DNA of 64,000 nucleotides, from positions 20,565 to 84,564 of IMG/VR virus record IMGVR_UViG_3300035696_002928. One strand, 5' to 3'. The translations under genes were made by a program, and so were the position numbers. The notes beneath the pieces are model-generated. The model had not been told where the DNA came from. It saw only the letters and a program-made list of their open reading frames with translations, and searched no databases. Below, one piece after another: positions 8,053-62,767 of this stretch (the stretch's first letter is position 1; each line of letters opens with the position of its first letter). The DNA comes from a virus (taxonomy: Duplodnaviria > Caudoviricetes).

Positions 8053-8727
8053 TTAGCGTGGCCTGATTTCATCCAGCGAGCGGAAGCCGGGTGCCCCGAA
8101 CACGCCGTCCATGAATCCTTTGTCCACGGCCTCCGCCGCAGGCATGTACCACTCGCGGACCTCGTTCATGCGTTGTCGCAGGTACTCGCGCACACGGTCC
8201 TTGGAGTATTTGTTGCGCCGGAAGAATGAGCCGCGGTAGCACTTGGCTGTGTAGATGGCGAGCATCTGGCCGTCCAGGCGATCATTCTGCTTGGCCTCCG
8301 CCAGAAAGCTGCGAGCATCGCCCTCATAGGCGGCCGTGCCGAAGTGGACCATGAAGTCCGCGTTGGGCATGATGACCCGCTTCTTGGCTGCCTGCGGAAT
8401 GATGCTCGACATGCTTCGCGCGTGGGCGTAGGCAAGCAGTGTGACGGGCGATTGACTGGCCGCGATGGCATCGTAGATGGCGATGCCGTAATTCCAGTCA
8501 CCGCCACAGGTGCATTGATGCACGAGGATGGACTGATGATTCAGCGAATTCAGAAAGAGAAGGTTCTTGATGAACGTGTTGGCGCAGGCGAAATCAATGC
8601 CGTCCTCCTCGTTCGCGGCCGGACTCATTAGTACGATCTCGCGCGTATCGGGATTGATCCCGAACTCGTGCAGGTCATAGACCAGTTCCGACCGTTGCGA
8701 AATGCTGCGGCGAGGCTTACGTTTCAT
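8053..8727 (-). CDS. clpP: ClpP-like serine protease
   Basis: CGGDWNYGIAIYDAI, ARSMSS (nucleophile Ser), RVIMPNADFMVH, WYMPAAEAVDKGFMD. Confidence 0.8.
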   Translation of the reverse strand: MKRKPRRSISQRSELVYDLHEFGINPDTREIVLMSPAANEEDGIDFACANTFIKNLLFLNSLNHQSILVHQCTCGGDWNYGIAIYDAIAASQSPVTLLAYAHARSMSSIIPQAAKKRVIMPNADFMVHFGTAAYEGDARSFLAEAKQNDRLDGQMLAIYTAKCYRGSFFRRNKYSKDRVREYLRQRMNEVREWYMPAAEAVDKGFMDGVFGAPGFRSLDEIRPR

Positions 8728-8878
8728 CGGCTTTCTCCACAGTGAGAAAATGCACGTCCGCGGGATGGCTGTCGAAATCCAGCCACTCGCAGATTTGCCG
8801 CCGGAGAACGTCGCCGACCGTGTACAGGTCAGTGTCCGCCGGCATGTTGTCAAGTTGCAGGACAACTCTCACGTTCAT
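8717..8878 (-). CDS. Small hypothetical protein (53 aa)
   Basis: ATG immediately after the tRNA 3' end; overlaps the ClpP start. Confidence 0.45.
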   Translation of the reverse strand: MNVRVVLQLDNMPADTDLYTVGDVLRRQICEWLDFDSHPADVHFLTVEKADET

Positions 8879-12452: not shown

Positions 12453-13388
12453 TTACTGCGTGCGAACGAACTGCTCGATCCAGCTACGCGCGGCCTCGAA
12501 GTTGAAGCCGCCCAGACAGGGCTCGGACAAGTCGGGGCTGCCGCGCCCGGAGCCGACTACCGCGGCGTCTTCCACCGGAATGGCCTCGATGTCTTTCAGG
12601 GTGGGCATCTTGACGGTCGGGTCGATAGCCCATTCGATCTTGGCTTCCTTGGCAAAGGCATGGATGCGCCGCACGGGAACGATGAAGTTGAAGCCCTGGA
12701 GCCGCTGCACGCCCTGGGTCAGCATCCCGACGTAGACGCCATCCGCCTTGATGTACACGCCGCCGCCCGAGCTACCGGGGAAAGCCACGGCCGTCACCTG
12801 GTCGAAGACCTTGACGTTCGCGCCCTTCATCGGCAACGTCCGCCCCACCTGGCTGAGCACGCCGGTCGTGTAGCTGTTCGCCCCGAATTGGCCGAGGAGA
12901 CTGCCGCAATGCGCCAGTTCGACGCCGATGGCCGGGATGTAGTCCTTCTCCAGGTGGAACTTCGTATTCAGCGTGATCGGGTAGGCATTCTTGCAGCGGA
13001 CCATGAGCAGGGCCAGGTCTTCGCCATAATCGGCGTCCGACACCTTGATGACCTTGGCGTCGAACTTCACTTCGCCGACCCGCCGGCCGCCTTCCTGCCG
13101 CTCCTGGACGATCTCGGCGTCCTTGTATTCGATCAGGGTCCGCGTGGTGCCGTTGGCCGTGACGACCGTGCGTGACGTGCGCAGATTGTCAACGACGTGG
13201 GCCGCCGTCCAGACGAAACTCACGGTGTCCTCGCCGATCTTTCGAGTGACGAGGTTGCCGGAACCCTGGGCCTCCCCGGACTTGATGGTCACGCTGATCT
13301 GCTGCAAATCGTCGGGCACGCCCGCCAGGGCCGTGCCGCCCAACAGGGCGAGGGACAAGGCGAAAACCAGAAACAGGCTACTCTTCAT
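12453..13388 (-). CDS. Secreted trypsin-like (S1) serine protease
   Basis: Signal peptide; TAAHV, EDLALL, PGSSGGG catalytic triad motifs. Confidence 0.85.
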   Translation of the reverse strand: MKSSLFLVFALSLALLGGTALAGVPDDLQQISVTIKSGEAQGSGNLVTRKIGEDTVSFVWTAAHVVDNLRTSRTVVTANGTTRTLIEYKDAEIVQERQEGGRRVGEVKFDAKVIKVSDADYGEDLALLMVRCKNAYPITLNTKFHLEKDYIPAIGVELAHCGSLLGQFGANSYTTGVLSQVGRTLPMKGANVKVFDQVTAVAFPGSSGGGVYIKADGVYVGMLTQGVQRLQGFNFIVPVRRIHAFAKEAKIEWAIDPTVKMPTLKDIEAIPVEDAAVVGSGRGSPDLSEPCLGGFNFEAARSWIEQFVRTQ

Positions 13389-45151: not shown

Positions 45152-45424
45152 CTACCCCTGCGGGCATTGGTGCCGCAAGGGGCACTCGAAGTGGCTGCTG
45201 GCCAGGGCCTTTTCCAGTCGCTCCATCATGGTCGTGTTCTGCGCGATCACGTCCGTGCAGCGCTCCACCATCGGCAGCAGCACTGCGCGCTGCTCGCCTT
45301 CCAACTTGTCGATACGCCTGCTCATGCGCAGTTCGCGGAGCCAGTTCTGCCAGAGGAAGAATCCCACCACCAGAACCAACGGCCCGTACTGCCGCAGCAG
45401 CAACCAAAGGTCGGACAGTTCCAT
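45152..45424 (-). CDS. Holin-like single-TM coiled-coil protein
   Basis: QYGPLVLVVGFFLWQNW TM segment followed by a coiled coil. Confidence 0.45.
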   Translation of the reverse strand: MELSDLWLLLRQYGPLVLVVGFFLWQNWLRELRMSRRIDKLEGEQRAVLLPMVERCTDVIAQNTTMMERLEKALASSHFECPLRHQCPQG

Positions 45425-45455
45425 ACCGAGTCCTCCACCTGCGAAACGAGAAAGG

Positions 45456-45488
45456 CCGCCCGGCCCGGATGCGCACCGAGCCGGGCGG
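45456..45488 (-). terminator. Hairpin / terminator after the major capsid gene
   Basis: CCGCCCGGCcCGG...CCGaGCCGGGCGG stem followed by CCTTTCTCGTTT on the minus strand. Confidence 0.55.
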
Positions 45489-45512
45489 ATTCGTGACCTT
45501 GAGACAGCGGGC

Positions 45513-46985
45513 TTAGCCCTGGAGGACGACGCAGAGGTTCGTGTCCAGGATGGCGACACCCGCGAGGATGTCCAGGTTGACCACCGTGCCGCCCTGGGCG
45601 ATGCTGTACTGCATCGACACCCTCATGGCGATGTCGTTGTAGACACCGACGTGCGAGAGCACGCCCATCGCGTTGTTCGGAATGGCCAACGGACGGGTGA
45701 CCAGCGCGATGGCGTTCCGGTGGAAGGCCATGTTCAGCGCGCCGGCCGGGCCCGGGAAGCACTTGTCGGCGGCGGTGATGTCCTGCTCCAGCGGCCGGTC
45801 CAGGAAGAGGGCCTGGCACGCGCCGGCGGGATTCGGCGTCCCATCCGCGTCCGCTTGGTAGGACTCGATGATGGTGTACGTGTGCCGCACACCGCCACTG
45901 TGCTGGAAAGCGATCAACTGGCCGACCTGCGGAGGCAGGCCCGCCCCGTAGCCACCCACCGTCACGGCCTCGACCCAGCCCGCGAGCTGGGTGGCCGACA
46001 CGGCGCACGCCTTGTAGACCGTCAAGGCGGCCCCGGCGGAGGTGGCGTACTTGTTCACCTCGTTGAGGGTGACGTGATCCACCGGGGTCCCGGCGGTCGC
46101 GGTCACGTAGGTCGGCTGATCGTTGCCGGCCACGGTGACGAACTCGCCACCCGTCGCCAGCGGCGCGTAGCTGCCGGCGGTGATCGCCTGCGACCCGCTG
46201 CCACCCGCGGCCAGGGCGGCGGTGACGGTGCCCGCAGCGTCCACGTCGCAGTTGGCAACCGAAACGCTGTTGACGTTCTGGTCCATGTAGGTGTCGAACC
46301 CGAGAATCCTTCCCAGGGTGGCGCTTTCCAACGCCGTGCCGAAGTCACCGCGTTGCTGGGCCGCGATGAACAGTTCGTTCTTCAACATCGAGGTCTCGCT
46401 GATCGGAGCCAAGACCAGGTTGCGGCCCTCCAGCGGGGCCTTGTTGACGTTCAGCCGCTCGCGGGCTTCCAGCACGTAGTCCTTGCTGTTCTGCGCCGAG
46501 AGGTTAGCCAGCCGGCCCACGCGACCGGTCGGTCCGCCCAGGAACCCGTGGACCCGGCCCAAGACGGCGCGGTCCACCGAACGGGCAATGGTAATCATGC
46601 CCGGCCGGAGGTAGATGTCCACCAGGTCTTGGAACGACTTGCTGGCCTCGCCGTCCTTGATGGTGAAGCTGGTGTAGAACCACTGGTCCAGCGGCACGCG
46701 GACGTTCGTGGCGTTCGCGTCCTGGTTCTGGAGCGTGGTGCCGTCCTTCTTGCGGCGAATCTGGAAGGTGCCGGGCCGGCGGGTGTTCACCACGTCGCCA
46801 AACTGGCGGATTTCGTTCTCGAAGTCGCGGTGGACCAGGTTGGCGATCACCATGTTCTCCTGGAGGATCGCCAGGCCCTCGGCCGCCCACAGTTCGGGAA
46901 TGAAGCCGTTCGCTCCCGAGCCGGTCACGTCGAAGTTGTTGTCGAAGCACGCCACGGCGGCGCGCGAGAGGTAAAGCGGATTCAT
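45513..46985 (-). CDS. Major capsid protein (P22 coat-like) with insertion domain
   Basis: IPELWA.EGL..L.ENMV.ANLVHRDF...GD.VN.RRP; C-terminal LDILAGVAIL; GGAG RBS favours ATG 46985. Confidence 0.85.
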   Translation of the reverse strand: MNPLYLSRAAVACFDNNFDVTGSGANGFIPELWAAEGLAILQENMVIANLVHRDFENEIRQFGDVVNTRRPGTFQIRRKKDGTTLQNQDANATNVRVPLDQWFYTSFTIKDGEASKSFQDLVDIYLRPGMITIARSVDRAVLGRVHGFLGGPTGRVGRLANLSAQNSKDYVLEARERLNVNKAPLEGRNLVLAPISETSMLKNELFIAAQQRGDFGTALESATLGRILGFDTYMDQNVNSVSVANCDVDAAGTVTAALAAGGSGSQAITAGSYAPLATGGEFVTVAGNDQPTYVTATAGTPVDHVTLNEVNKYATSAGAALTVYKACAVSATQLAGWVEAVTVGGYGAGLPPQVGQLIAFQHSGGVRHTYTIIESYQADADGTPNPAGACQALFLDRPLEQDITAADKCFPGPAGALNMAFHRNAIALVTRPLAIPNNAMGVLSHVGVYNDIAMRVSMQYSIAQGGTVVNLDILAGVAILDTNLCVVLQG

Positions 46986-47074
46986 CGTTGCCACTCCACG
47001 TAGTTGTCAGGATCAAGAAACAGAAGAAGCCGCAACGTGCGGCTTCTTACGACGAACCCCTGATGATCGACCGG

Positions 47075-47992
47075 CTAGCGGTTGGACTGGCCCTTCTGGG
47101 GGCGCAACCCGAGCAGAGCAGGGTTCTCTGCGCGAATCTTCAGGTATTGCTCTTGGGTGAGCTTCCTGGGGTCCACTTTGCCGCCAGCACCCGACGCAAG
47201 GCCGCCGGTTGCCGCACTCGACCCGATGCCGCTGACGACGCCGGACTTGAAGAGGTTGCCGTAGACCTGCGGCAAGTCTTTCATCCGCTTCACAGCGCTT
47301 TCGGGCGTGTGCAAGGTCACAGTCGGTTCCCCGGTGTTGGGATCGGTGTCCGGGAAGTCCACCATGACCTTGAATTTCCCCGTGCCCTTGCCCGTCTTCT
47401 CGTCCGTGATCTCGGTCAGGCGGGTCATGGGGCGCAACACGGACATCACCGTGTTGGTGTTGAACGCATCGCCGCCGACGGCCGCATCCATCAAGGCCCG
47501 CTCCACGGTGCCCTCGCGGTAGCGATTCTCCCACTGTTCGCGGGCCTTCCTCTCGTCCGCCAACTGTTTCTGGTACTGCTCTTCGAGTTGCTTCTTGTCG
47601 TGAGCCAACTGCTGTTCCTTCGTCCGCGTCTCCTTCCGCAGGTCCTCCAACTGCTGGGCCAACTGCTCGCGCTCTTGGATGGTCAGGTTCTTGGACGCTG
47701 CCGTTTCCTCAAGCATCTTCTCGACCCGCTGAATCTGCGCCTGATGCTTGCGGCGGTCGTCGGCGAGCATCCGGTTGACATCCTCCTGGCTGAAGCGGCC
47801 ATCGCCCACGCCAACCCCGGTCCCGGCACCCGCCCCCGCACCTGCGCCGGCACCTGCGCTGGCACCTACGCTTGCGCTCGCACCAGCCCCGGCCCCGGCA
47901 CCCGCGCCGGCATCGCCGGCACCTGCCCCCGCACCCGCACCCTCGCCCTCGAAACAAGCCAACACCGCACGCGACAGATAGAGAGACTTCAT
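47075..47992 (-). CDS. Capsid scaffolding protein
   Basis: (GA)n linker, FSQEDVN motif, long coiled coil, directly upstream of the capsid gene. Confidence 0.8.
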   Translation of the reverse strand: MKSLYLSRAVLACFEGEGAGAGAGAGDAGAGAGAGAGASASVGASAGAGAGAGAGAGTGVGVGDGRFSQEDVNRMLADDRRKHQAQIQRVEKMLEETAASKNLTIQEREQLAQQLEDLRKETRTKEQQLAHDKKQLEEQYQKQLADERKAREQWENRYREGTVERALMDAAVGGDAFNTNTVMSVLRPMTRLTEITDEKTGKGTGKFKVMVDFPDTDPNTGEPTVTLHTPESAVKRMKDLPQVYGNLFKSGVVSGIGSSAATGGLASGAGGKVDPRKLTQEQYLKIRAENPALLGLRPQKGQSNR

Positions 47993-48123: not shown

Positions 48124-48693
48124 TCACGAAACTCGTGACAACCTGACCGCCTGCTCGTCGCGTAGGAAGGGCTTCAAGAGCGACCATGCCAGCGGGTTCG
48201 GCACGAGGTTGATAAGATGCTCAATCGGCACCATGTTCCGCTCGTAGTGCGTCCGCACTTCGGCGTGACCTTGGGCCGTGACCGCCAGGTTCTCCAATTC
48301 CAACTGCGGGTCCACGCCGTCCAGGAGGCTCAGTGCCAACTCGTACTGGGCGATGCGGATGGGCTCCGGGACCACCGTGTCCGCGCCGCGCGGAAACTCC
48401 AACGCCTGGCTCGATTCCGCGGCGCGCTCCTGCTGGCGGTACTGCTCCGCCGCCTTGTGGTCGAAGGTGCCGTTCGTCGGGTCCCGCCAGGGCGGCGGCA
48501 CCGTCTCATGGAACACCCAGACCGTGTGCTTGAAGCCCTTGAAGCTGAGATTGTCGATCAGCCGCCGGGCCGCCAAAAGCGCCTTGGACTGGTCCGCGGC
48601 GTTGGCATCATCCCACGGCTCCGAGTGCAGGCGAGAGTCGAAGTAATCGTCCGCCTCGGCCACCGAGCCATAGATGGATGTGTCAATCGCCAT
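48124..48693 (-). CDS. Head-tail adaptor (DnaT-like family)
   Basis: YGSVAEADDYF...KALLAARRLID...QALEFPR...IAQYELAL; AGGAGG RBS. Confidence 0.75.
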   Translation of the reverse strand: MAIDTSIYGSVAEADDYFDSRLHSEPWDDANAADQSKALLAARRLIDNLSFKGFKHTVWVFHETVPPPWRDPTNGTFDHKAAEQYRQQERAAESSQALEFPRGADTVVPEPIRIAQYELALSLLDGVDPQLELENLAVTAQGHAEVRTHYERNMVPIEHLINLVPNPLAWSLLKPFLRDEQAVRLSRVS

Positions 48694-48704
48694 CGGACCA
48701 CCTC

Positions 48705-49850
48705 CTACATAGGCGCGAGCCAGTCGAGTTCTTTTCGTCCACGTTCGGTGTACCAGCCTCGTCCCCATAGGTCGGACAACATCTGGAAATACTCTTGGTA
48801 GCGCCAGCGGATTCGGTCCATGCCGTAGTTGGCGACCGCCCGCCGGTGGATGTACTTGCGATCCAGCGTCGGGGCGTTGCGGGCCGCGAACAGGAAGTGG
48901 TCCAGCGTGCGGCAGCGGAAGCCGGTCTTGCCGTGCTCCACCGTCTCCGGGAACGCGCCCCAGTCGGTCGTGATGACCGGCGTGCCCGCCATCTGCGATT
49001 CCACCGCCACGGTGCCGAAGGGCTCGACATACAGCGTTGGGACAAAGGTGGCGATAGCCTGTCCGTAGAGTTGAGCCCGCTTGGCACCCGTGACCGCACC
49101 CACGTATTCGAGGTTGTCGCCTTCGTACACCTCGCCGTCTGTGGCGTAAATCCGGTTGCCCTCGACCTTGAGGCAGCCTTGCCCGGCGATCTTCAGCTTG
49201 ACGCCCAGCCGGTTGCAGGTTTCGACCGCGATCTTGATGCCCTTCCGCTGAATCAGCCGGCCGATATACAGGTAGTAGTCGCCCGGCTCCTTGGAATACG
49301 TGTAGTCGGCAGGGTCCAGGTAATTCGGGATCACCACGTCGTAGAACCTGCCATCGGGGTCGTAGCCGCCCTGTGCGCCCCAGACCTTGTGCATGTGGGC
49401 ATAGGACTCGAACACCCGGTAACGGGCGAACGTCCCGTTGTAGCCGATGCCGTACTCCACCACCAGCACGTCGTCGCCGACCGCCTTCACCAGGGGCAGG
49501 TTCATCGTGCCCATGATGATGCACACGAAGTCGCCCGGCTGCTTCCGCTTGTTGATCTCGGCCGCCGCCCGCTCGTTCAAGAGACCCCAGTACGGGGCCT
49601 GCCCGGTCCAATCGACATCGTAAAGGGCGTTGGGATCGAACGTGCCGAACCAGCCTTCCTGCTCGGCCGCCGACAGGACGATCACGTCCTCGGTGCATTC
49701 CACCCGGCTCCCTTCTGCCCCATAATGGAAGACCTCGTGGCCGAGGCTCGTCATCATTTGGCAGAAGTGGAGCACCTTCGTCGTGAACGCGCACGCAGTA
49801 TGCTTGGAATGGGTCTGCGTATGCGGCAAAGCCACAACATGGAATCTCAT
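48705..49850 (-). CDS. GT4 (GT-B) glycosyltransferase
   Basis: YIGRLIQRKG, EPFGTVAVESQMAGTPVI (EX7E), GFR. Confidence 0.88.
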   Translation of the reverse strand: MRFHVVALPHTQTHSKHTACAFTTKVLHFCQMMTSLGHEVFHYGAEGSRVECTEDVIVLSAAEQEGWFGTFDPNALYDVDWTGQAPYWGLLNERAAAEINKRKQPGDFVCIIMGTMNLPLVKAVGDDVLVVEYGIGYNGTFARYRVFESYAHMHKVWGAQGGYDPDGRFYDVVIPNYLDPADYTYSKEPGDYYLYIGRLIQRKGIKIAVETCNRLGVKLKIAGQGCLKVEGNRIYATDGEVYEGDNLEYVGAVTGAKRAQLYGQAIATFVPTLYVEPFGTVAVESQMAGTPVITTDWGAFPETVEHGKTGFRCRTLDHFLFAARNAPTLDRKYIHRRAVANYGMDRIRWRYQEYFQMLSDLWGRGWYTERGRKELDWLAPM

Positions 49851-49912
49851 GCGGGTCTCTCTCGCGTTGACGTAACTGGGTTGAGGGTTGAAGTCGCGTC
49901 TCTCCCCGCGAC

Positions 49913-52126
49913 TTAGTATTCGGACGAAGCGTAATTGGAGATCAGAGCGTTGGCGTTGCCCACCGTGTTCAGCGCCGGGTTGTAGTTGGTCGTGTTGGAT
50001 TGGGTGTTCACGGACGTAACCCGGCACAGGCCGCCCACGTAAGCACTCGCACCGTATCCCGCGCCGCTCCCGACCAGGCTGCCGCCGGTGATGTCGATGA
50101 AGCCCAAGTTCCGCGCCAGGATGCCCGTGTAGGCACCGCCGATGGCGACAAACGGTGCATTGATGCACGTACTGCCGCCCGACGCATAGAGCCCGGCCCC
50201 CGACCCCATGCCGCCGCAACCGCTGATCCCCAGCCATTGATCGGTCGTCACGAAGCCGTTGAACAGCTTCACGCCGTAGTCATAGTTGTTGATGCCGAGG
50301 GACTCCAGCAAAATCGACGGGTTGCCTCCGGCCCAGTCGCTTCCCGTTCCGACCAGGACGGCACTCGTCCCGTCATTTCTTACGCCGATCAGCGCCATCT
50401 GCCCCAGCGTGACATCGGCCCCAAGATGGAACCCGTCGCCGCTGAAGGTGAGGACACTCTTGAGCACGCGGATGTAGCCAGTGACCGCGCCGCTCGGCAC
50501 GTCGCTGGAAAAACTCCAGACCTGCAAACTGATGCGGCTGTTCACTGCGTCAACATTCGTGACCTGGTGGCAGCCGCACAGCATCAGTGGCTTCGTGCCA
50601 CCGCTCGGTATGCGGATCACCACGTAGTCGTTGACTGCCACATGGCTCACGTCGCTGACATTGAGGACGACTGTGTAGCCGCCTCCGATAGCGCTCGTGC
50701 TCTGCACCGACGACATGGTGATGTCGTAGGTGTTGACGCCGAGAATCTGAACTCGTGCCCCGCACGGATGCCAGTAGTCGATCTCGCCCACCGACGTATA
50801 ATGTCCGTCCTGAACATAGAGCGTGGCGGTGTAGGCCGGCGGGATGTACAAGGGACCGATGACCGACAAGAACTTGCCGACCGTCTTCCACGGATTCCCG
50901 CTGCTGCCGTCCCCGGTCGAATCGTCCCCGGACGGCCCGATGTAGTAGGTGGTGTCGCCGCTGATGGCCGATCCCGCAGGGCCGGTTGCCCCAGTTGGTC
51001 CGGCAGGCCCCGTGGCTCCTGTTGGCCCGGCCGGTCCTGTCGCGCCCGCGGGACCTGTCGCCCCGGTTGCGCCGCCGGACGGACCCGATGGACCCGTCGC
51101 CCCCGTTGCACCGACAAGGAAAGCTGTCAGGCCGCCCCAGCGCGTGCTCTGCGGTCCTGTGGCCCCAGTCGGGCCTGTCGTTCCAGTCGCCCCTGTAGGA
51201 CCTGCCGGGCCAGTCGCCCCGTCGCTTCCTGTGGGGCCAGTGGGACCAGTCGATCCCGTCGCGCCAGCAGGGCCCGTTGGCCCGCCGGACGGCCCCGTTG
51301 CGCCGACAGGACCAGTCGGGCCGGTGGGACCCGTCACCCCGTCACCTCCAATGATTCCATTGATCCCTTGGGGACCACTCGGCCCCGTGGAACCAGTCGG
51401 TCCGGTCGGCCCAGTAGGTCCGGTCGGCCCACCAGATGGTCCAGTGGCTCCGGTCTCGCCTTGCGGACCAGTTGCGCCCGTGGCACCAACATCTCCTTGA
51501 GGGCCTGTCGGCCCCGTGGCCCCGGTTGGTCCCGTGGCTCCATTCGGCCCAGTGCTCCCCGTCAGCCCGGTGGGACCAGTCACACCGGCAGGCCCCGTGG
51601 CTCCAACCAAAAATGCCGTGAGGCCACCCCAGCGCGTGCTCTGCGGTCCGGTCGCGCCCGTCGGCCCCGTCGCACCAGTGGGGCCGGTAGCTCCGGTGGG
51701 ACCTGCGAGACCAGTCGGCCCCGCGGGACCAGTCGCACCGGTCGGTCCGTCCGAGGGACCGGTCGGTCCGGTCGCCCCTGTCGGCCCGCTAGGTCCCGTT
51801 GGCCCCGTGGCTCCTATGTTGCCAGTCGGCCCAGTTGCCCCGGTCGCTCCCGCACCACTGGGACCAGTCGCGCCAGTCGGCCCCGTGGCTCCGGTCGCGC
51901 CAACGCCCCCCATTCCGCCTGTCGGCCCGCTGGGGCCAGTCGGTCCCGTGGGACCGGCCTGCGTGCTCCACGACAAATTGCCGTCGCCGTCCGTGGACAG
52001 GACTTGGTTCGGGGTGCCATCAGCCACCGGAAACGTGAACGGCGAGATCACCAATTGATCGCCGACATCAAATTGGCGGACTTGTCCGCCGTCTACGATC
52101 AATGGTTTGTGTTCTGCCACGATCAC
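49913..52126 (-). CDS. Collagen-like fibre with C-terminal beta-helix-like domain
   Basis: Long G-P-T/G-A-T triplet tracts; [20 protein letters not shown] head domain. Confidence 0.8.
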
Positions 52127-52142
52127 GCTCCCGATTCATTGC

Positions 52143-52709
52143 CTACAGCTTGATGGGAGCCATAAGCGTCAAGTCCAGCTTCGTCGCACTCAGCGCCTTC
52201 CCAACACGCACAACGAACTGACCGGCCGTGGACGGAGCCGTCGCCGTGAGCAGGCCCGCCGTGGCGGCACTCAAGAAGTAAACCGCCCCCGGCGTCAGGC
52301 CGCCTGTCGTCCCGGCCACGGCGTCCCACTGGTCGGTCGTGGCCGTCAAGACGCCATCCAGCAGGACATTTCCCGAAGCGGCTGCCGCGATGGAGGCGTC
52401 CTTCACCAGCCCCAGGACATCCGCGGTGGCTTGGGCGTCCGCCTTGGCGAGATCGACGTTGCCATTCGCCTTCATGTAGACCGGCGCACCGATCACGATA
52501 GGCGCGGCGTTGTCGTTACTCAGCGGAGTGGCCGCAACGTCGGGATCGACCCATTCGAGCACGGTGCCCGTAGCTGGAACCGCCAAGACCTGTGACGGTG
52601 CGCCCATGCTGGCCGGCACTTGAAACGCGCCGGCATCGAGCCCGTCGCCGGACTGGACTTGTTCGAGTTGTCCGTTTTCCAGGACGATTGGTTTACGATA
52701 CGCTGTCAT
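52143..52709 (-). CDS. Capsid decoration / cement-like protein
   Basis: IGAPVY...GLV...G.L...GAVYFLS module, also present in the next gene. Confidence 0.55.
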   Translation of the reverse strand: MTAYRKPIVLENGQLEQVQSGDGLDAGAFQVPASMGAPSQVLAVPATGTVLEWVDPDVAATPLSNDNAAPIVIGAPVYMKANGNVDLAKADAQATADVLGLVKDASIAAAASGNVLLDGVLTATTDQWDAVAGTTGGLTPGAVYFLSAATAGLLTATAPSTAGQFVVRVGKALSATKLDLTLMAPIKL

Positions 52710-52720
52710 GTGAGTGCTCC

Positions 52721-53446
52721 TTAAAGCCGAACCCTTGTTTTGATGTCAACGTCCAGAATCCCCGCAGTCACGGCAATCCCGACCTGCACAATGAAACCAG
52801 TTGCAGGCGGCGTCACGGTTATCTGTCCCGCGGCACCGCTCAGGTAGTACACGGCACCCGGACTCAAGGCGGCGTTGCCCGAAGGGACAGACCAGTCCGC
52901 CAATTCCAAACGCCCAGCAGGAACGATGCTGGACGTGTCCCCGGCTGCAACGTCGCCACGACAAAAACCACACGTCTGACTCGATGCCTCGGATGCAGCA
53001 CTCGCTCGGTAAGCCTGCGTATCCTGTTGATTCACGCAGACCGGTTGACCCGCTTGAAGCGATTCGCCAGCCGTTGTCTCAATGTCGGCTGACGGACCGC
53101 TCGGGCCGGTCGCCCCCACGGGACCAGTCGGTCCGGTCGGTCCACCAGGCGGGCCGATAGGACCGCTCGGTCCACTCGGCCCGGTGGCTCCAGTTGCTCC
53201 CACCCGGCCTAACGGTCCCCGCGGGCCTGTCACGCCAATAGGCCCGGTCGCACCCGTGTCCCCTTGCGGCCCACTCGCGCCGACAGGCCCGCTGGGGCCT
53301 GTCGGACCTGTTTCACCTGTTTCACCCTTCAGCCCCATCACACCGGCAGGTCCGCTTGGACCTGTCGGACCGCCGGCCGGGCCTGTTGCACCAGGCGGAC
53401 CCGCAAGTGGTGATTGTTCGTAGTCAAACTGCATGACTATGCCCAA
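52721..53446 (-). CDS. Collagen-like protein with C-terminal cement-like domain
   Basis: GXY tract followed by AGQPV...PGAVYYLS domain. Confidence 0.75.
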
Positions 53447-53451
53447 TCACG

Positions 53452-54582
53452 TTAGGGTGTGAATGTGTGCCAACTCAGGTTCCCACCCGAGTCCGATGCC
53501 AGATACCAGCAGAGATTGTTGCCAGTTGGCGCAGGCGGCAGTCCCGCACTGGGACCTGTCGCACCTGTGGCACCGCGCGGGCCAGAGGCTCCCTGTGAGC
53601 CCGTCGCGCCACGGGGACCAGTGGGACCCGTCGCCCCGACCGGGCCCACCTCACCCGTGTCTCCCACGTCACCCTGCGGACCCGTCGCACCGCTAGAGCC
53701 TGCGGCACCGACGAGACCAGTGGCCCCGGTGGCTCCAGTCGCGCCCACGCCACCTTGCGGGCCTGTGGCACCGGCGGGGCCTGTAGCCCCAGCAGGGCCC
53801 GTTGCACCCACGACACCTGCGGTGCCCTCTGGACCAGTAGCACCGGCGGGACCCGTCGCTCCCGCGAGCCCTGCCGCACCATTGGCACCAACAGGACCGC
53901 TTGGCCCGGTCGCACCAGTACGGCCCAATGAACCTTGTGGGCCTGTCGCCCCAGCAGGTCCAGCAGGACCTGTGGCCCCCGTGGGACCAGGTGCTCCGGT
54001 CGGTCCAGTCGGTCCGCCGGACGGTCCGGTCGGGCCAACATCGCCGGTGTCGCCCTTCGGCCCGGTCGCCCCAAAAGGGCCCGTGGCTCCGGCAGGCCCG
54101 GTTGCTCCGATGTCACCCTGGGGCCCGGTCGCTCCCACAGGACCCGTAGCCCCGTCAGGTCCGGTGTCGCCGATGGGACCTGTGGGACCAGTTGGTCCAT
54201 CCGCCCCGTCAGGCCCGGTCTCGCCGAGCGGCCCGGCGGGTCCGGTAGCTCCCAGATCTCCTTGCGGTCCCGTAGCTCCCGCCACACCTGCCGGTCCAGT
54301 GGCTCCAGGCACGCCTTGTGGCCCGCTTGGACCAGTGGCCCCAGCAGGCCCGGTGGCTCCAACGCCTTGCGGCCCCGTCGCCCCGGTCGCTCCGATCACG
54401 CCTTGCGGCCCTGTTGCCCCGGTGACTCCGATCTCGCCCTGCGGCCCGGTCGGTCCCGTGGAGCCGCGGTTGCCTTGCGGCCCTTCCGGTCCGGTTGCCC
54501 CGACAGGACCCGTGGGCCCGCCAGTTGGCCCAGTCGCCCCGACAGGGCCAGTGGCCCCGGTAGGTGTGCTGTAAGTAAACAT
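53452..54582 (-). CDS. Collagen-like protein (almost entirely GXY)
   Basis: Near-continuous GATGPxG repeats. Confidence 0.8.
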
Positions 54583-54923: not shown

Positions 54924-56807
54924 CTAAAGTTGCTTGCCCTTCCCGCGGACGGGCGGCTTGGTGTCGTGGTCGAGCGTCGTGTCCCGGCTGGTCGCCTTCT
55001 CCTCCTTGCCAGCGGCGGCGTTCGCCGAGAGATCGGGCACGCCCCGCGCCCCGGCATCACCGCCCATGTTGCCCACGTCGCTGAGGTTCGTGGAGTCAGA
55101 CCCGAAGGTCTTGCCCGTCGCCGGATCGCGCCTCGTGCCGCCGGTCGTTTGATCGCCGAACGCACCGCCCTTCTGCTGAGCTTGCAGAATCCGAATCGCC
55201 CTGGCCGCATGATCGGCACGGGCTTGCAGGTGCTCGTCGTCGTTGAAGCCGAGTGCCATCGCGGCCGTCTTCTCGCCGCACAGGCCCGCCGTGACCGCCG
55301 CAATGATGGTCGTCGGATCACTGGTAGCGTAAGGGGCCTTGTCGATCTCGGCGAAGATGGCTTGAATGTCGCCCACGCTGACCTTGCCGCCGAGCAAAGC
55401 AAGCACGATGTTCTTCGCCAACTCGCGCTTGACCTTCTGGCCCGGCACTGCGTACATCAACTTGACGAGATTCTCGGCTTCCGTGATGCGGTCGGAGTCC
55501 GTCTTGAGGCTGTAGCGGTCCGGGTACTTGATCGTGGCGACATTCCGTTTCGCCGCATCGCGTTCCTCATAGGCCGCCCAGAACTCGGCGATCTGCCGCT
55601 CGGCGGCCTCCAGCACCAGGCCGATGTAAGACAAGCCGGCTTCAAGGCCCTGGTTGTCCATCGACTTCGATTCCGCCGTGGCCCGATTCGCCGTGTTGGC
55701 CACCGCCAAATGGATCAGCTTGCGGATGTCGTCCTCCAGCTTGGCTTGCAACTCCATCGACGCCTTCAAGGGCTCGCTCGACGGATTGATAAAGGCCGGA
55801 GCATTGGCCTTCATGTCGTAGGTCCGGCCTTGCGTCGTGCCGACCTTGATGTCGGAGTCCGCACCTGGCTGACCGCCCGTTGTCGCCGTGCCGTCCTCGC
55901 CCACCGCAGTCTTCAGGTGGGAGCCCATCGCCCGCTGGTCCTTCTGCTCGATGTAGAAAGGGAAGTTGCTCTTCAGGGCGTAGTTCACGTCACTGGACCC
56001 GAGATTAAGCAACGCGATTTGGTGGTTCACCACGTCCTTAATCATGCTGTCGCCGATGTCCAACAGCACGAAGGGGATGCGGGTCAACTCCAACTCCACG
56101 GCCCCGGCCGGATTCCCCTGGCGGTCGATGGGATTGCCGGCGGTGTCCAGGAATTGCAAGTTGACCTTGCCGGTGTCACGGTCGATCCACAACATGCGGA
56201 ACCGCTCGACCGTGGTGGTCGGCAGGTAGGTTCGCTGATCGAAGTTGAGCACCACGTCGCGGAGCAAGAGCGCCTGGAACGTGGAGGGCTCATCCGGCTT
56301 GGCACAAGTCCAGCTCAGAATGTCTTCGATGGGGTAGAAGTACAGGTAGGGCCGAACGCCCTTCACGTCGGCCAGCGTGGCGTTGCCCGGGACCTCCGGG
56401 GAATCCACGTAGACGCCGACGCGCCCCATAATGAGCAGTTCCGACAGCACCTTGATACCGAGGAATCCGTTCATCGTGTTGCCGCGCAAGTCCACGCCCA
56501 GGCTCAAACCGTTGATCGCCTCCTGGTATGCGTTGCTGCCGCCGCGCCGAATGGTGTCGCGCAAGCGCTGGAAGATGGCGTTGCGCACGTCGTCAATCGC
56601 CACCCGCGCATAGCTGGGGATCGGCGTCATGTTGAGCCGATTCTGAAAGTCCTGCTCGTCCTCGCGGCCACTGAGTTTCTGGAGATACAGCTTGCGGAAG
56701 TATTCGCCGCCGTTGTAAGTGATGCGCCACTTGCGCCAATCCAGCAGGCTGCTGAGATAGCTCGGGTGGCGGACTTCAACGATGTTGGTGATGTATTGAA
56801 CAACCAC
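54924..56807 (-). CDS. Portal protein
   Basis: 627 aa immediately after the terminase; helical; low-complexity C-terminal tail. Confidence 0.75.
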   Translation of the reverse strand: MVVQYITNIVEVRHPSYLSSLLDWRKWRITYNGGEYFRKLYLQKLSGREDEQDFQNRLNMTPIPSYARVAIDDVRNAIFQRLRDTIRRGGSNAYQEAINGLSLGVDLRGNTMNGFLGIKVLSELLIMGRVGVYVDSPEVPGNATLADVKGVRPYLYFYPIEDILSWTCAKPDEPSTFQALLLRDVVLNFDQRTYLPTTTVERFRMLWIDRDTGKVNLQFLDTAGNPIDRQGNPAGAVELELTRIPFVLLDIGDSMIKDVVNHQIALLNLGSSDVNYALKSNFPFYIEQKDQRAMGSHLKTAVGEDGTATTGGQPGADSDIKVGTTQGRTYDMKANAPAFINPSSEPLKASMELQAKLEDDIRKLIHLAVANTANRATAESKSMDNQGLEAGLSYIGLVLEAAERQIAEFWAAYEERDAAKRNVATIKYPDRYSLKTDSDRITEAENLVKLMYAVPGQKVKRELAKNIVLALLGGKVSVGDIQAIFAEIDKAPYATSDPTTIIAAVTAGLCGEKTAAMALGFNDDEHLQARADHAARAIRILQAQQKGGAFGDQTTGGTRRDPATGKTFGSDSTNLSDVGNMGGDAGARGVPDLSANAAAGKEEKATSRDTTLDHDTKPPVRGKGKQL

Positions 56808-56819: not shown

Positions 56820-58520
56820 TTACAGAACTTTGCCGATGTTGGTGCCGCCACCAATGCCTGCGGCAAAGGTCAGTCCGATGTCGGCGTAGACCAGCGAGTG
56901 CGCGTAGTGGTCAGGTCCAGTCTCAACGTAGACCGCTTCTGGGTTGCCGTGGTCATCCTTCTCGTAGGTCCGCACAAGGTTCTTCAGGTGCTCGCGGTAC
57001 TCCACGGAAATGTCTGCCGGCAACAGCAGCCGCGTCGGGTTCGTCTTGAAGCGGCCGAGCGTGCAACCCAGCCAGTTCGTCCGGTCCACCGTCGCCATCG
57101 GGGCTCCGGTGTCCTCTTCAGAAAGTGCGATCTCCTTCGCGGTCTGGCCGCGCCGATAACGGGTCAGCCAGACGTAGCCGTGAAACTTACGGGCAAAGCG
57201 GCGGGCATCGTTGATGTTCGGGTCGGCGTCGATGACGCAGGCCAGGACTTGCCACTCCCGCATCAGTTGTCCGAGATAAGTGAAGTCGTCTTCCCGGAAC
57301 TTGCCGTACCAAAGCAGCTTGCCCAACGCCGCCAGGTTGATGTCCACGCGACGGTCGCCATCGACCGTCCAGTCCACAACGGAGATGTAGCCGGTCTTGC
57401 CCTGGTCCACACCCATCGTGATGCACCGCCGGCCGCCGACCACCGGCCGCAGGTCGGTGATCGAATACTTCCGCACGGCGTTATCCAGCATCGTGTCCGT
57501 GACCTGGGCGTTCTCGCCGATGAACGGCACGCCCAGCTTGGAGTTGTGAAACTCCTTGTTCGCTATCTCGTCGCCCTGACCGCGAAAATAGGCGATAGCG
57601 ATTTCGCCCGGACTCACGGTGGACGAGTAAAGCTGATTGGCGTAAAAGCCACGGGACTCCTGCGGGTCCACATTGGGATTCGTCGGCTGCCACAGGCCGT
57701 TGGCCAGAAACATCGGCTTGGCGGCATGGTCCAGCTTGTGCTTGCATTCCTTGCACTTGAGAAAGGATTCGGCGGTGCGCGGGTCGCTGACCGTTTCACC
57801 AACGATCTCGAAGCAATCGGGCCACACCAACTCAGTCGATCGGCTGCAACACGGGCACTTGAAGAAGAAGTGCTCTTGCGTGCTGGTGAGGTACAGCCTA
57901 TGGATGCCGTACTTGGGAACAGTCGGCGTCGATATGGCGACGACGTGCTTCTCGATCTGGCCGGAGAGGCGTTCCAAGGCCAACCAAATGGCCTTCGTAT
58001 CCATCTCGTCCAACTCGTCCAGGACCAGTTCGGAGACCGGGATGGACTTCAGGTTGGAATCGCCACGGCTCCCGCGGATGTAGAGGACGTTGGTGCCGGT
58101 CGATTTCAGGCCGACCGTGTTGGTATCGACGAACAGTGACTTCAGGTAAGGGCTGAGCTTCAGTGCGGTGGTGAAACGAGCCTTGGAGAAATCGCTCGCA
58201 TTCAAGGTCGTCGGAAGCACGTACAGCACGTCACGCTTCGCCTGGTCAAGCGTGAAGAACGCCCGATTGATCCCCGCTTCCGTGATACCCAACTGTGCCG
58301 CCTTCATCGCCACGGTGAAGGCGGCCTTGCTGTTGTGAATCTCGCGGCACCAAGGATGGTGCAGGAAGCTATAGGGACCGGGGAAAGGCGCTCCCATCAC
58401 CCGGCGATGCTCGGCCCACCGGCTACACGACAATAGAGACGAGTTCTCCAGGCCGCGGGTGATGCCCTGCTCGAAGGCATCCCACAGATCGGCATGGCTG
58501 TCGCGTGTCTGAATCGTCAT
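56820..58520 (-). CDS. terL: Terminase large subunit (lambda GpA-like)
   Basis: MKAAQLGITE, LDELDEM, ISTPT, CPCC...CKEC zinc finger, MGVDQG nuclease, DHYAHS. Confidence 0.88.
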   Translation of the reverse strand: MTIQTRDSHADLWDAFEQGITRGLENSSLLSCSRWAEHRRVMGAPFPGPYSFLHHPWCREIHNSKAAFTVAMKAAQLGITEAGINRAFFTLDQAKRDVLYVLPTTLNASDFSKARFTTALKLSPYLKSLFVDTNTVGLKSTGTNVLYIRGSRGDSNLKSIPVSELVLDELDEMDTKAIWLALERLSGQIEKHVVAISTPTVPKYGIHRLYLTSTQEHFFFKCPCCSRSTELVWPDCFEIVGETVSDPRTAESFLKCKECKHKLDHAAKPMFLANGLWQPTNPNVDPQESRGFYANQLYSSTVSPGEIAIAYFRGQGDEIANKEFHNSKLGVPFIGENAQVTDTMLDNAVRKYSITDLRPVVGGRRCITMGVDQGKTGYISVVDWTVDGDRRVDINLAALGKLLWYGKFREDDFTYLGQLMREWQVLACVIDADPNINDARRFARKFHGYVWLTRYRRGQTAKEIALSEEDTGAPMATVDRTNWLGCTLGRFKTNPTRLLLPADISVEYREHLKNLVRTYEKDDHGNPEAVYVETGPDHYAHSLVYADIGLTFAAGIGGGTNIGKVL

Positions 58521-59279: not shown

Positions 59280-59523
59280 GGCTTTCCTCCACTGCTTGAG
59301 CTATTTCCAAGAGGTTGGACGCCATCCGGCGAAGCGGGGCGGGATCACCACCCGGCGCGCCAAGATGCGTGTAGACTCGCATCATTTCCACGACTGCATT
59401 GCAGGTGACAAGGGCATGGTGCCAGAGGCGCTTGCCGTCTTCGACCACAAGGCCGGAGACAGGTGGCAGCTTCGGTGTCGCCGGCCCTGGCGGACAATTG
59501 GCGCACCGTCGCTCGGCCATCAC
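59254..59523 (-). CDS. Hypothetical protein
   Basis: Start overlaps the thioredoxin stop; fills the gap in the operon. Confidence 0.4.
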   Translation of the reverse strand: MMAERRCANCPPGPATPKLPPVSGLVVEDGKRLWHHALVTCNAVVEMMRVYTHLGAPGGDPAPLRRMASNLLEIAQAVEESHASRASVQ

Positions 59524-61353: not shown

Positions 61354-61384
61354 TGTTCTCTCGCTTGTGAAACGGACCTTGACG

Positions 61385-61942
61385 TTATTGTGGAAGCGGA
61401 GCCGCCGGGGTGTAGATTGGCGTTATTGCCCATCCCAGGCTTGCCTTCCATTCAGCAATCAGCGTCTCTCGCGGAACCCAGACATAGCTCTCGACAGCGT
61501 TGTTGTCCAAGAGGGCAGCCCACTTGTTGTCGAGATACACCAAGGCGACCATGTGCGCCCCGCCCAGCACCGTGATGCCGCAGCCCCTCCGCGTGCGGCA
61601 CGCCCACTCCAGGAACTTCACGTCACCGTTGGTGACGTAGGCGTAGCGAATCCTGGCCGCATCCAGCTTCTTGGCCATGTCGTCGGGCCATTCGCCGGCA
61701 CCGTAATTCCGTCGCACCCAATCGGCCGTGTGATAGCGGCCCTGCCAACGCAACAGGGAAACCATCGAGGCCCAGGTACAGGACCCGTCACCCTCCGCTC
61801 CCTGCCAGTTGCTCTGCCGCATGGAAAGCGGCAAGTTCACTGTGGGGCGCTCTTTCTTCACCGGCCTCAGCTTGAGGCTGTCGTCACTGCACCCGCTGAG
61901 CAACAGGCACAACAGCGACACCGCTAAGATGTTTCGCGTCAT
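61385..61942 (-). CDS. Lipoprotein with C39-like cysteine peptidase domain
   Basis: Lipobox LLSGC; Q...GSCTWAS, AHMV, LDNN. Confidence 0.65.
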   Translation of the reverse strand: MTRNILAVSLLCLLLSGCSDDSLKLRPVKKERPTVNLPLSMRQSNWQGAEGDGSCTWASMVSLLRWQGRYHTADWVRRNYGAGEWPDDMAKKLDAARIRYAYVTNGDVKFLEWACRTRRGCGITVLGGAHMVALVYLDNKWAALLDNNAVESYVWVPRETLIAEWKASLGWAITPIYTPAAPLPQ

Positions 61943-62529
61943 CGCATCCTCCGTGGCTTGAAGACCAGTTCCCGCCGCCGGAGCGTGCGACAAAGGTGAT
62001 TCGGATTCCAACGGGCGGCGTCACTCGTGTTGAAGATTCCGATGTTCGACAAGCCCGCGGCGACCCACTCCGAGCAGAAGATCATGTGCAGGTCTTGCTC
62101 GCGGAAGCATGACTCGATCAAGGACAACCCGACGCCAGCCGACCGGAACGCCCCCATCTCGTCATAGGGCGTATGGATCGTGGCCATCAGGAACTCAGTC
62201 AGCCGCTTGTCTTCGCTCTCATAGAGCGGCCGATAGAGCGGATAGTGCCACACCTTGCCGTTGTAGGCCGGGAGCATCTTGTCGAGCACATGCGCCTGTG
62301 TCCCGTCAAAGCACTGCCCGGCGATCTCGCAGGGCATGTTTTCCAGCGTCGTGGACTCGAACAGCAGCAGCCGGCCGTCATCGGCATGGGCCATGATTCC
62401 CACATGGCTGATGCCCCACCACGGAAGCCCGTAGGTGCCGACGTTGATGAGGCCGCTGATCCAACTGTTGCCCGAGAAGCCGATTACGTCCCCGGCCTTG
62501 AGATCATCCGGGTGGACGATCTTGTTCAC
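61939..62529 (-). CDS. Permuted papain-like amidase (YiiX/YaeF, NlpC/P60 superfamily)
   Basis: GDVIGF, SHVGI before FCSEWVA (His precedes Cys), TPYD; start uncertain (GTG 62529 or 62631). Confidence 0.75.
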   Translation of the reverse strand: MNKIVHPDDLKAGDVIGFSGNSWISGLINVGTYGLPWWGISHVGIMAHADDGRLLLFESTTLENMPCEIAGQCFDGTQAHVLDKMLPAYNGKVWHYPLYRPLYESEDKRLTEFLMATIHTPYDEMGAFRSAGVGLSLIESCFREQDLHMIFCSEWVAAGLSNIGIFNTSDAARWNPNHLCRTLRRRELVFKPRRMR

Positions 62530-62767
62530 GGTGCGCCGGCGCAGCGCCGGAATCGCAGTGGCCGTTGCCGGCGGCGGCGCACACCCTTGGCCGCAATGGG
62601 GAAGGCTCGGGAACATGCTCAACCTCTTCACCGTTATGGATCATGGTCCGCACCGCGCGACTGTAGCCGTGATAGCGCTTCTGGTCGTTCGCCCAGCAAT
62701 CTTCGCAGCGCGTCTCACCCGCGTAGGTGATGATCTTGCCGCACGCACACCACTCGGGCATCTGCAT
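62504..62767 (-). CDS. Small CxC...CxxC protein
   Basis: CACG...CEDC; TAGATG coupling to the upstream gene. Confidence 0.5.
   Translation of the reverse strand: MQMPEWCACGKIITYAGETRCEDCWANDQKRYHGYSRAVRTMIHNGEEVEHVPEPSPLRPRVCAAAGNGHCDSGAAPAHREQDRPPG

What the first reader, a model, noticed from the sequence alone, without database searches (positions are those of the whole stretch)
46944..47992. Scaffold and major capsid protein share an N-terminal leader LYLSRAxxACF
Seen: scaffold begins MKSLYLSRAVLACF-EGEG and capsid begins MNPLYLSRAAVACF-DNNF; the rest of the proteins is unrelated. Known: in Staphylococcus phage 80alpha, scaffold and capsid share an N-terminal motif ending in Phe that is removed by the host Prp cysteine protease. 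No prohead protease gene is adjacent to the portal or capsid genes here. Inference: a new maturation-cleavage or targeting signal, probably cut after C-F, by a host protease or one of the phage's five peptidases.
Basis: partly seen in the sequence, partly recalled or inferred. Interest (0 to 1): 0.7.

Follow-up and report, generated by a model that had tools for sequence, protein, structure and literature searches.

The report
Shared leader tag on phage scaffold and coat
In a large group of uncultured phages of Planctomycetes, the two proteins that build the empty head, scaffold and coat, start with the same 14-residue, co-evolving tag. It resembles the removable leader of staphylococcal phage 80alpha, but these hosts lack the enzyme (Prp) and the ribosomal-protein template that explain it there.

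Summary
The coat protein (45513-46985, minus strand) starts MNPLYLSRAAVACF-DNNFD. The scaffold (47075-47992, minus strand) starts MKSLYLSRAVLACF-EGEGA. Nine of 11 residues match at the same offset, and nowhere else in the window does the motif occur.

It is a family trait:
- 108 of 114 coat homologues with an intact N-terminal arm carry it.
- Every related phage has exactly two copies, one on the scaffold and one on the coat.
- The two copies co-vary within a phage (p<1e-4), while their synonymous codons do not match. Selection therefore acts on the peptide.

The tag is predicted disordered and is joined to both proteins by linkers of variable length.

The hosts are Planctomycetota. Prp was not found in 151 sampled genomes. 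Host L27 in two genomes has no N-terminal extension. No host protein in 301 genomes starts with the tag. The 80alpha route through host Prp is therefore not supported.

No head-module protease exists. Of the phage peptidases:
- the ClpP-like one is not conserved;
- the trypsin-like and C39-like ones are exported;
- a conserved cytoplasmic YiiX/C92-like cysteine peptidase remains a candidate, but it could equally be a lysis enzyme.

Cleavage is unproven. My best reading is a modular assembly tag, probably trimmed. The strong rival is an uncleaved address peptide.

This scan noted the same tag earlier on other DNA (e1-5344264). I found no paper describing it.

The parts
46944..46985 (-). Coat leader, residues 1-14 (MNPLYLSRAAVACF)
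   Evidence: It is conserved in 108 of 114 homologues. AlphaFold2 pLDDT is below 50 for residues 1-28.
46929..46943 (-). Acidic/small stretch after the coat's aromatic residue (DNNFD here; family consensus [AD]-N-D-N-D)
   Evidence: Position counts: +2 is N in 40 of 42 and +3 is D in 31 of 42. This is followed by a spacer of variable length before the N-arm AFIPELW.
45513..46985 (-). Major capsid (coat) protein, P22-like, 490 aa
   Evidence: PF11651 7.5e-24 and phrog_283 1.8e-51. AlphaFold2 pLDDT 80.7. Foldseek to CUS-3, Sf6 and P22 coats at 4e-13 to 2e-11.
47951..47992 (-). Scaffold leader, residues 1-14 (MKSLYLSRAVLACF)
   Evidence: It is conserved in 43 distinct scaffold leaders.
47798..47950 (-). 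Scaffold EGEG stretch plus Gly/Ala-rich flexible linker (residues 15-65)
   Evidence: Alignment A3 shows that its length and composition vary (Gly/Ala, poly-Ala, Pro/Ala) between the leader and the invariant F67.
47075..47992 (-). Scaffolding protein, 305 aa: leader, linker, coiled coil, C-terminal ..LTxQQYxEIRxKNPELLGLR
   Evidence: phrog_206 (head scaffolding protein) 6.8e-9. Alignment A3.
48124..48732 (-). Head-tail adaptor
   Evidence: phrog_477 (head-tail adaptor Ad1) 4.8e-13. PF20557 2.4e-8.
54924..56807 (-). Portal protein
   Evidence: phrog_145 3e-39.
56820..58520 (-). Large terminase (gpA type)
   Evidence: PF05876 2.5e-27 and PF20454 6.3e-8.
61939..62631 (-). Cytoplasmic YiiX/Peptidase_C92-like permuted papain-fold protein. 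It is the only conserved phage-encoded candidate for trimming the leader, and it may instead be a lysis enzyme.
   Evidence: No signal peptide. His and Cys are invariant in 41 homologues. AlphaFold2 pLDDT 78.6. Foldseek to 3kw0 at 7e-7 and to E. coli YiiX (2if6) at 1e-5. Present in 14 of 21 related records, including both complete ones. No Pfam hit at E up to 1.
8053..8865 (-). ClpP-like protein that matches 'head maturation protease' families. It is an accessory gene of this phage only.
   Evidence: PF00574 4.6e-19. phrog_94 1.3e-20. Absent from 14 related records, including two complete ones. The syntenic slot is empty in G005 and G007.
12453..13388 (-). Trypsin-like serine peptidase, exported
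   Evidence: PF13365 8.9e-7. It has a Sec signal peptide, MKSSLFLVFALSLALLGGTALA, which is conserved in 11 homologues. Present in 11 of 21 records.
61385..62011 (-). C39-like papain-fold lipoprotein, exported
   Evidence: Lipoprotein signal ..LLLSGC, kept in G005 and G007. No Pfam or PHROG hit. The C39-like label rests on reading the sequence and on note e1-5940711.

Best explanation
The 14-residue N-terminus, consensus x-L-Y-L-S-R-A-x-[VL]-A-C-[FY], followed by [DEA]-[GN]-[DE]-[GN], is a self-contained, flexible linear tag. This phage lineage places it on exactly two proteins, scaffold and coat, which are the two components that co-assemble into the procapsid.

Shown here:
- the tag is conserved at the protein level;
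- it sits at the extreme N-terminus;
- it is tethered by linkers of variable length;
- its two copies co-evolve within each phage;
- it has no counterpart in host proteins.

Inferred: both copies are read by one common partner during head assembly. By analogy with phage 80alpha, whose leader has the same length (13-14 residues), ends in an aromatic residue and sits on the same two proteins, the tag is probably a leader that is needed early. It would then be trimmed at or just after the aromatic residue, exposing the acidic stretch.

The trimming enzyme is not Prp. The only conserved, cytoplasmic, phage-encoded candidate is the YiiX/C92-like cysteine peptidase at 61939-62631. An unidentified host protease is the alternative.
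For: - Motif and start sites.
- Family-wide conservation: 108 of 114 coat homologues, down to about 55-60% identity, and 43 distinct scaffold leaders.
- Copy number: exactly two copies per phage in 74 loci and in three whole genomes.
- Co-variation: matched pairs share 5.4 of 11 positions against 3.65 for shuffled pairs, p about 5e-5 in 19 dereplicated pairs. There is a shared one-residue deletion in L080, and shared RARLVCF and RP[WF] variants.
- No gene conversion: 128 of 308 identical residues use the same codon, against 168.6 expected.
- Disorder: coat residues 1-28 have pLDDT below 50.
- Variable tethers in both proteins.
- No protease in the head module.
- Homologous scaffolds from a Bacillus and a Nitriliruptoria genome bin carry leaders that look Prp-type, judged against the 80alpha/L27 motif as I recall it. 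They sit at the same place and are followed by the same kind of acidic low-complexity linker. The two scaffold families share the motifs F/YSQxxVxxML and KL[TS]xxxYxxxR.
- 80alpha facts: Prp cuts between F and A and removes 13 and 14 residues. The scaffold leader is essential for assembly (PMC5744158).
- Candidate enzyme.
Against: - No direct evidence of cleavage exists.
- The coat fold is that of P22, Sf6 and CUS-3. By established knowledge, those phages mature without proteolysis.
- In 80alpha, cleavage itself is dispensable, so a leader can act without being removed.
- The YiiX/C92-like protein sits in a cluster of envelope proteins and may be the lysis enzyme. Distant signal-less homologues occur in 10 of 301 Planctomycetota genomes with no detectable homologue of this phage's proteins within about 20 kb, so the family is not tied to the tag.
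- The Cys before the aromatic residue is replaceable (Ser, Ala, Arg, Asn). This argues against a chemistry centred on that Cys.
Confidence: 0.45

Rival explanations
1. The tag is not removed. It is an address or docking peptide on a flexible tether, laid out like an encapsulin cargo-targeting peptide. Scaffold and coat would both use it to bind the same site, such as the inner face of the coat shell, the portal or a chaperone. This would coordinate the co-assembly or folding of the two proteins.
For: - The layout is a short conserved peptide plus a variable Gly/Ala/Pro-rich linker.
- The peptide is predicted disordered.
- Frequent Pro inside the tag (LSPA, LAPA, SRPW, SQPF) suits an extended bound peptide.
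- Co-variation of the two copies fits two ligands of one pocket.
- No conserved protease sits in the head module.
- P22-like coats mature without proteolysis (fold match; established knowledge).
- In 80alpha the scaffold leader is essential but its cleavage is not, and the authors propose a common chaperone (PMC5744158).
Against: No binding partner has been identified. Strict N-terminal placement, a fixed length of 14 and an invariant aromatic residue followed by acidic and small residues are also what a cleavage site looks like. Co-variation fits a co-evolving protease equally well.
Confidence: 0.35
2. The tag is an 80alpha-type system proper: it mimics the N-terminal extension of host ribosomal protein L27 and is cut by host (or phage) Prp.
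For: Only the general resemblance to 80alpha, and the Prp-type leaders on scaffolds of Firmicute relatives.
Against: - PF04327 was not found in the phage record, in two host genomes or in 151 sampled genomes of the phylum. Positive controls matched.
- L27 in both host genomes starts MAHKKGQGSS.
- A profile of the tag finds only the prophage's own two genes in the host genomes.
- In 301 genomes of the phylum it finds only internal, chance-level matches.
Confidence: 0.02
3. The tag is cut by one of the other phage peptidases: the ClpP-like 'head maturation protease' homologue (8053-8865), the trypsin-like enzyme (12453-13388) or the C39-like enzyme (61385-62011).
For: - ClpP-like: it matches PHROG head-maturation-protease families and has no signal peptide.
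- Trypsin-like: it is highly conserved in the clade, and a chymotrypsin-fold enzyme could cut after F or Y.
- C39-like: C39 enzymes are leader peptidases (established knowledge).
Against: - ClpP-like: absent from 14 tag-bearing relatives, including two complete genomes.
- Trypsin-like: all 11 homologues have a Sec signal peptide.
- C39-like: it has a lipoprotein signal that is conserved, and coat leaders lack a Gly-Gly site.
- Capsids assemble in the cytoplasm.
Confidence: 0.05
4. The tag is a secretion or lipoprotein signal (A-C resembles a lipobox), or the match is a nucleic-acid-level element or a by-product of recombination rather than a peptide signal.
For: V-L-A-C and A-V-A-C loosely resemble a lipobox. 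The two genes are adjacent.
Against: - Only about 9 hydrophobic residues precede the Cys, interrupted by S-R, which is too short for a signal peptide.
- Cys is replaced by Ser, Ala, Arg or Asn in several lineages.
- Coat and scaffold are cytoplasmic proteins.
- Synonymous codons differ more than codon usage predicts, which excludes an RNA/DNA element or gene conversion.
Confidence: 0.02

Closest known systems
N-terminal leaders of capsid (CP) and scaffold (SP) of Staphylococcus phage 80alpha, cut by host Prp (PMC5744158; Wall et al. 2015, as cited there)
   Same: The same two proteins carry the tag, at the extreme N-terminus. The length is the same (13-14 residues) and the tag ends in an aromatic residue. 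There is no phage prohead protease in the head module. Homologous scaffolds in Firmicute genome bins carry what look like Prp-type leaders at the same position.
   Different: The sequence is unrelated (LYLSRAxxAC[FY]-[DEA][GN][DE][GN] against a ..NLQFF-A type motif, which I recall from memory). The host phylum has no detectable Prp and no L27 extension. No host protein bears the tag. Cleavage has not been shown.
P22-like procapsid assembly (P22, Sf6, CUS-3 coat with a separate scaffold)
   Same: The coat fold matches and the Pfam family is the same. There is a separate scaffold with a C-terminal helix-rich, coat-binding-like end. There is no protease.
   Different: The P22-type coats compared here start at the N-arm. 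Pfam and PHROG matches begin at about residues 19-29 of this coat, so the tag is an add-on that these models lack. All 156 matches to cultured phages begin at residue 25 or later.
Encapsulin cargo-targeting peptides (HK97-fold shells)
   Same: A short conserved peptide on a flexible Gly/Ala/Pro-rich tether directs a protein to the interior of an HK97-fold shell (established knowledge). The scaffold N-terminus here has the same layout.
   Different: Those peptides are usually C-terminal and sit on cargo only. Here the shell protein carries the same peptide. Binding has not been shown.
T4 capsid-targeting sequence with gp21 cleavage
   Same: A short N-terminal leader shared by several head-interior proteins and removed after assembly (established knowledge).
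   Different: T4 encodes the protease in its head module, and its sites are [LI]-x-E. No such protease or site is present here.
YiiX/YaeF family, Peptidase_C92 (PDB 2if6, 3kw0)
   Same: The protein at 61939-62631 has this permuted papain fold, with invariant His and Cys.
   Different: No member has a known substrate. The Pfam model does not score this protein at E up to 1. A link to the leader is only circumstantial.

Membership tests
80alpha-type Prp leader system | Scaffold and capsid share a short N-terminal leader | tested here: met
80alpha-type Prp leader system | The leader copies the N-terminal extension of host ribosomal protein L27 | tested here: not met
   L27 of two host genomes starts MAHKKGQGSS with no extension. 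A profile of the tag hits no host N-terminus.
80alpha-type Prp leader system | Prp protease (PF04327) encoded by host or phage | tested here: not met
   No match in 1 phage record, 2 host genomes and 151 sampled genomes of the phylum. Controls matched.
80alpha-type Prp leader system | The leader is removed at a defined bond (F|A in 80alpha) | not testable with these tools
   This needs protein chemistry on particles.
P22-like coat protein (PF11651) | Sequence and fold match to the P22 gp5 family | tested here: met
   PF11651 84.7 bits against a cut-off of 24. Foldseek to CUS-3, Sf6 and P22 at about 1e-12.
Protease-dependent HK97/lambda/T4-type head maturation | Prohead protease gene within the portal-scaffold-capsid module, conserved in relatives | tested here: not met
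   None by Pfam. Minimal modules have no room for one. The ClpP-like gene lies elsewhere and only in this phage.
Double-glycine leader with a C39 peptidase | Gly-Gly/Ala/Ser at the end of the leader, and a cytoplasmic C39 domain | tested here: not met
   Coat leaders have no Gly at the junction. The C39-like protein is a lipoprotein.
Bacterial lipoprotein signal peptide | Invariant lipobox Cys after a hydrophobic core of adequate length | tested here: not met
   Cys is replaced in several lineages. The core is short and interrupted.
Peptidase_C92 / YiiX (for the protein at 61939-62631) | Permuted papain fold with a His...Cys pair | tested here: met
   Foldseek to 3kw0 at 7e-7 and to 2if6 at 1e-5. 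His and Cys are invariant. The nearest Atlas cluster carries PF05708 in 23% of its members.
Peptidase_C92 / YiiX (for the protein at 61939-62631) | Match to the Pfam model PF05708 | tested here: not met
   No Pfam family at E up to 1.

The most novel reading that the evidence does not exclude
The tag may not be a cleavage signal in essence. It may be a shared address peptide through which scaffold and coat bind one site, or one chaperone, so that the two proteins are brought together in step. This would be a general solution that 80alpha also uses, where the leader is essential but its cutting is not, and that arose independently of Prp in a phylum that lacks it.
Probability: 0.3. Interest if true: 0.75.

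Novelty: new variant of a known kind. Interest (0 to 1): 0.6.

Why it matters
The only published case I found of scaffold and coat sharing a leader is the staphylococcal 80alpha group. There it is explained as borrowing the host's L27-processing enzyme, and its function remains unclear.

Here the same layout recurs, with an unrelated sequence, in hundreds of phages of a phylum in which I found neither the enzyme nor the L27 template. The two copies also co-evolve. This suggests that a common N-terminal tag on scaffold and coat may be a more general device of head assembly, not a quirk of Firmicutes.

It also offers a second, independent system in which to ask what the tag does, and a short list of candidate enzymes. 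Both proteins can be tested by heterologous expression, even though no host or phage of this group has been cultured.

Tried and rejected
- Complex prediction of the coat with scaffold residues 1-34 gave no verdict (score 0.00). I take nothing from it.
- AlphaFold2 of the coat alone leaves the tag disordered, so it gives no docking site.
- Scaffold against solved structures returned only noise.
- The apparent leaderless coats (L038, L039, L044, L048, L070-L074) are intron-split genes that still encode the tag.
- Three of the ten paper searches used found only the 80alpha papers. None concerned Planctomycetes phages with such a tag.
- No cultured phage in the phage collection has the tag.
- The neighbourhoods of distant YiiX/C92-like homologues in other Planctomycetota genomes held no detectable homologue of this phage's proteins. 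They therefore could not be used to test whether the enzyme travels with leaders.
- A scan of the remaining phage genes found no further protease.
- I considered self-cleavage at the Cys (or Ser) by acyl shift and dropped it, because Ala, Arg and Asn occur at that position in some coats and scaffolds.
- I considered Asn-driven self-cleavage and dropped it, because scaffolds have Gly where coats have Asn.
Full report
**What is there.** On the minus strand the window carries a head module. It consists of a gpA-type large terminase (56820-58520), the portal (54924-56807), a variable cassette of collagen-repeat genes with a glycosyltransferase, a head-tail adaptor (48124-48732), the scaffold (47075-47992) and a P22-like coat protein (45513-46985). 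The coat model matches the coats of CUS-3, Sf6 and P22.

The coat starts MNPLYLSRAAVACF-DNNFD and the scaffold starts MKSLYLSRAVLACF-EGEGA. Each start has a Shine-Dalgarno sequence in front of the ATG. A six-frame scan finds the motif nowhere else in the 64 kb. Nine matches out of 11 at the same offset has a chance probability of about 1e-6 over all gene pairs.

**It is a family trait under selection on the peptide.**
- The coat has over a thousand homologues in metagenomes. Of the 114 best with an intact N-arm, 108 begin with the tag. The other six are close variants (F for Y) or truncated gene calls.
- In about 70 viral loci the upstream scaffold begins with it too.
- The consensus is x-L-Y-L-S-R-A-x-[VL]-A-C-[FY], followed by [AD]-N-D-N-D in coats and [ED]-G-[ED]-G in scaffolds.
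- A profile of the tag finds exactly two copies per phage in 74 loci and in three whole genomes, and never a third.
- The two copies co-vary. Matched pairs share 5.4 of 11 positions against 3.65 for shuffled pairs, p about 5e-5 in 19 dereplicated pairs. Examples are a shared one-residue deletion (L080) and the shared variants RARLVCF and RP[WF].
- Gene conversion does not explain this. At identical residues the codons agree less often than codon usage predicts (128 of 308 against 168.6 expected).

**Anatomy.**
- AlphaFold2 leaves coat residues 1-28 without structure, while the rest folds well.
- The spacer between the tag and the N-arm (AFIPELW) varies from 6 to about 20 residues in coats.
- In scaffolds a Gly/Ala, poly-Ala or Pro/Ala linker of very variable length separates the tag from the invariant F67.
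- Proline is common inside the tag.

The tag is therefore a separable linear motif on a tether. It is not part of either fold.

**Hosts, and the 80alpha route.** Genome matches name the hosts as Pirellulales and Planctomycetaceae genome bins.

In 80alpha, host Prp removes 13 and 14 residues from capsid and scaffold at an F|A bond, and the motif is shared with ribosomal protein L27 (PMC5744158). Here that route fails on every test I could make.
- Prp (PF04327) is not found in the phage record, in two host genomes or in 151 sampled genomes of the phylum. Positive controls matched.
- L27 in both host genomes begins MAHKKGQGSS.
- The tag profile finds only the prophage's own two genes in those genomes.
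- In 301 genomes of the phylum it finds only internal matches at chance level.

Mimicry of a host substrate is therefore not supported.

**Phage peptidases.**
- No protease lies in the head module, and relatives have modules with no spare room (L054).
- The ClpP-like gene (8053-8865) matches head-maturation-protease families. It sits in a variable block and is absent from 14 relatives that carry the tag, two of them complete.
- The trypsin-like enzyme (12453-13388) is conserved, but it always has a Sec signal peptide.
- The C39-like protein (61385-62011) is a lipoprotein in all three genomes read.
- The remaining genes hold no recognisable protease.

- It has no signal peptide.
- His and Cys are invariant in 41 homologues.
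- Its model matches the YiiX/C92 permuted papain fold (3kw0 at 7e-7, 2if6 at 1e-5).
- It occurs in 14 of 21 related records, including both complete ones.
- It is not found in five genomes whose related coats lack the tag.

Against it, the gene lies in a cluster of envelope proteins where a lysis enzyme is expected. Distant signal-less homologues also occur in 10 of 301 Planctomycetota genomes with no detectable homologue of this phage's proteins within about 20 kb. It is a candidate and nothing more.

**Comparative pointer.** Distant relatives of the coat in Firmicute and other genome bins have no coat leader. However, the scaffold next to a Bacillus-bin coat starts MMLKDLFKFNLQFH-AEED, and one in a Nitriliruptoria bin starts MKERFELQLF-AEEE. 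Both resemble Prp-type leaders as I recall that motif, and both are followed by an acidic low-complexity linker. That scaffold shares the motifs F/YSQxxVxxML and KL[TS]xxxYxxxR with ours. The tag thus occupies the position that a Prp-type leader appears to hold in related scaffolds. This is the best argument that it works like one.

**Weighing the readings.** Two readings remain.

(a) A leader that is needed early and is then trimmed near the aromatic residue. I put this at 0.45. Within it, I put the C92-like enzyme at roughly 0.15-0.2 overall.

(b) An uncleaved address peptide that lets scaffold and coat bind one partner. I put this at 0.35. In its favour:
- P22-type heads mature without proteolysis.
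- In 80alpha the scaffold leader is essential while its cleavage is dispensable.
- The 80alpha authors themselves suggested a common chaperone.

Nothing computed here separates (a) from (b). The one complex prediction gave no verdict.

**Novelty.** I found no paper on such a tag outside the 80alpha group, and no cultured phage has it. The scan itself noted the same tag, and a sister tag, on other DNA (e1-5344264, e1-5798644). I class it as a new variant of a known kind.

Noticed in passing
L038:3774-4657, L044:5330-5966, L039:5291-5951, L070:4781-5409 (also L048, L071-L074): A group I intron (Rfam RF00028, 52-76 bits) with an internal ORF splits the major capsid gene just after the codons for ..AFIPEL in several relatives. 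Exon 1 encodes the tag and the start of the N-arm.
   Followed up: partly
window 8053-8865 (-): A ClpP-like gene that matches PHROG head-maturation-protease families lies far from the head genes, in a variable block. It is absent from 14 related records.
   Followed up: partly
window 12453-13388 (-): A secreted trypsin-like serine peptidase (Sec signal peptide) is about 70% identical across most of the clade (40-47% in the G005/G001 lineage). In G007 it is better conserved than the coat (70% against 56%). Its role is unknown.
   Followed up: partly
window 59520-62631 (-): A cluster lies between the first virion-arm genes and the terminase: a cytoplasmic YiiX/C92-like papain-fold protein, a C39-like lipoprotein, exported thioredoxin-fold proteins and a membrane coiled-coil protein. 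No classical endolysin was recognised in the window.
   Followed up: partly
window 45152-45559 (-): A small ORF with a hydrophobic helix and a coiled coil lies directly after the coat gene. It is conserved in G005 and G007 (51-57% identity).
   Followed up: no
window 48705-54582 (-): Collagen-repeat genes and a GT1 glycosyltransferase form a variable cassette between portal and adaptor. Some relatives have it (L013, L039) and others lack it (L011, L054).
   Followed up: no
L086:5265-5963, L091:736-1401: Scaffolds next to distantly related coats in a Bacillus bin and a Nitriliruptoria bin start with leaders that look Prp-type (..FNLQFH-AEED, ..FELQLF-AEEE), while their coats have no leader.
   Followed up: no
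G007:C1:4226-4816 and 76410-77000: The record called 100% complete holds two copies of the C92-like gene about 72 kb apart. This suggests a terminal duplication or a wrapped assembly.
   Followed up: no
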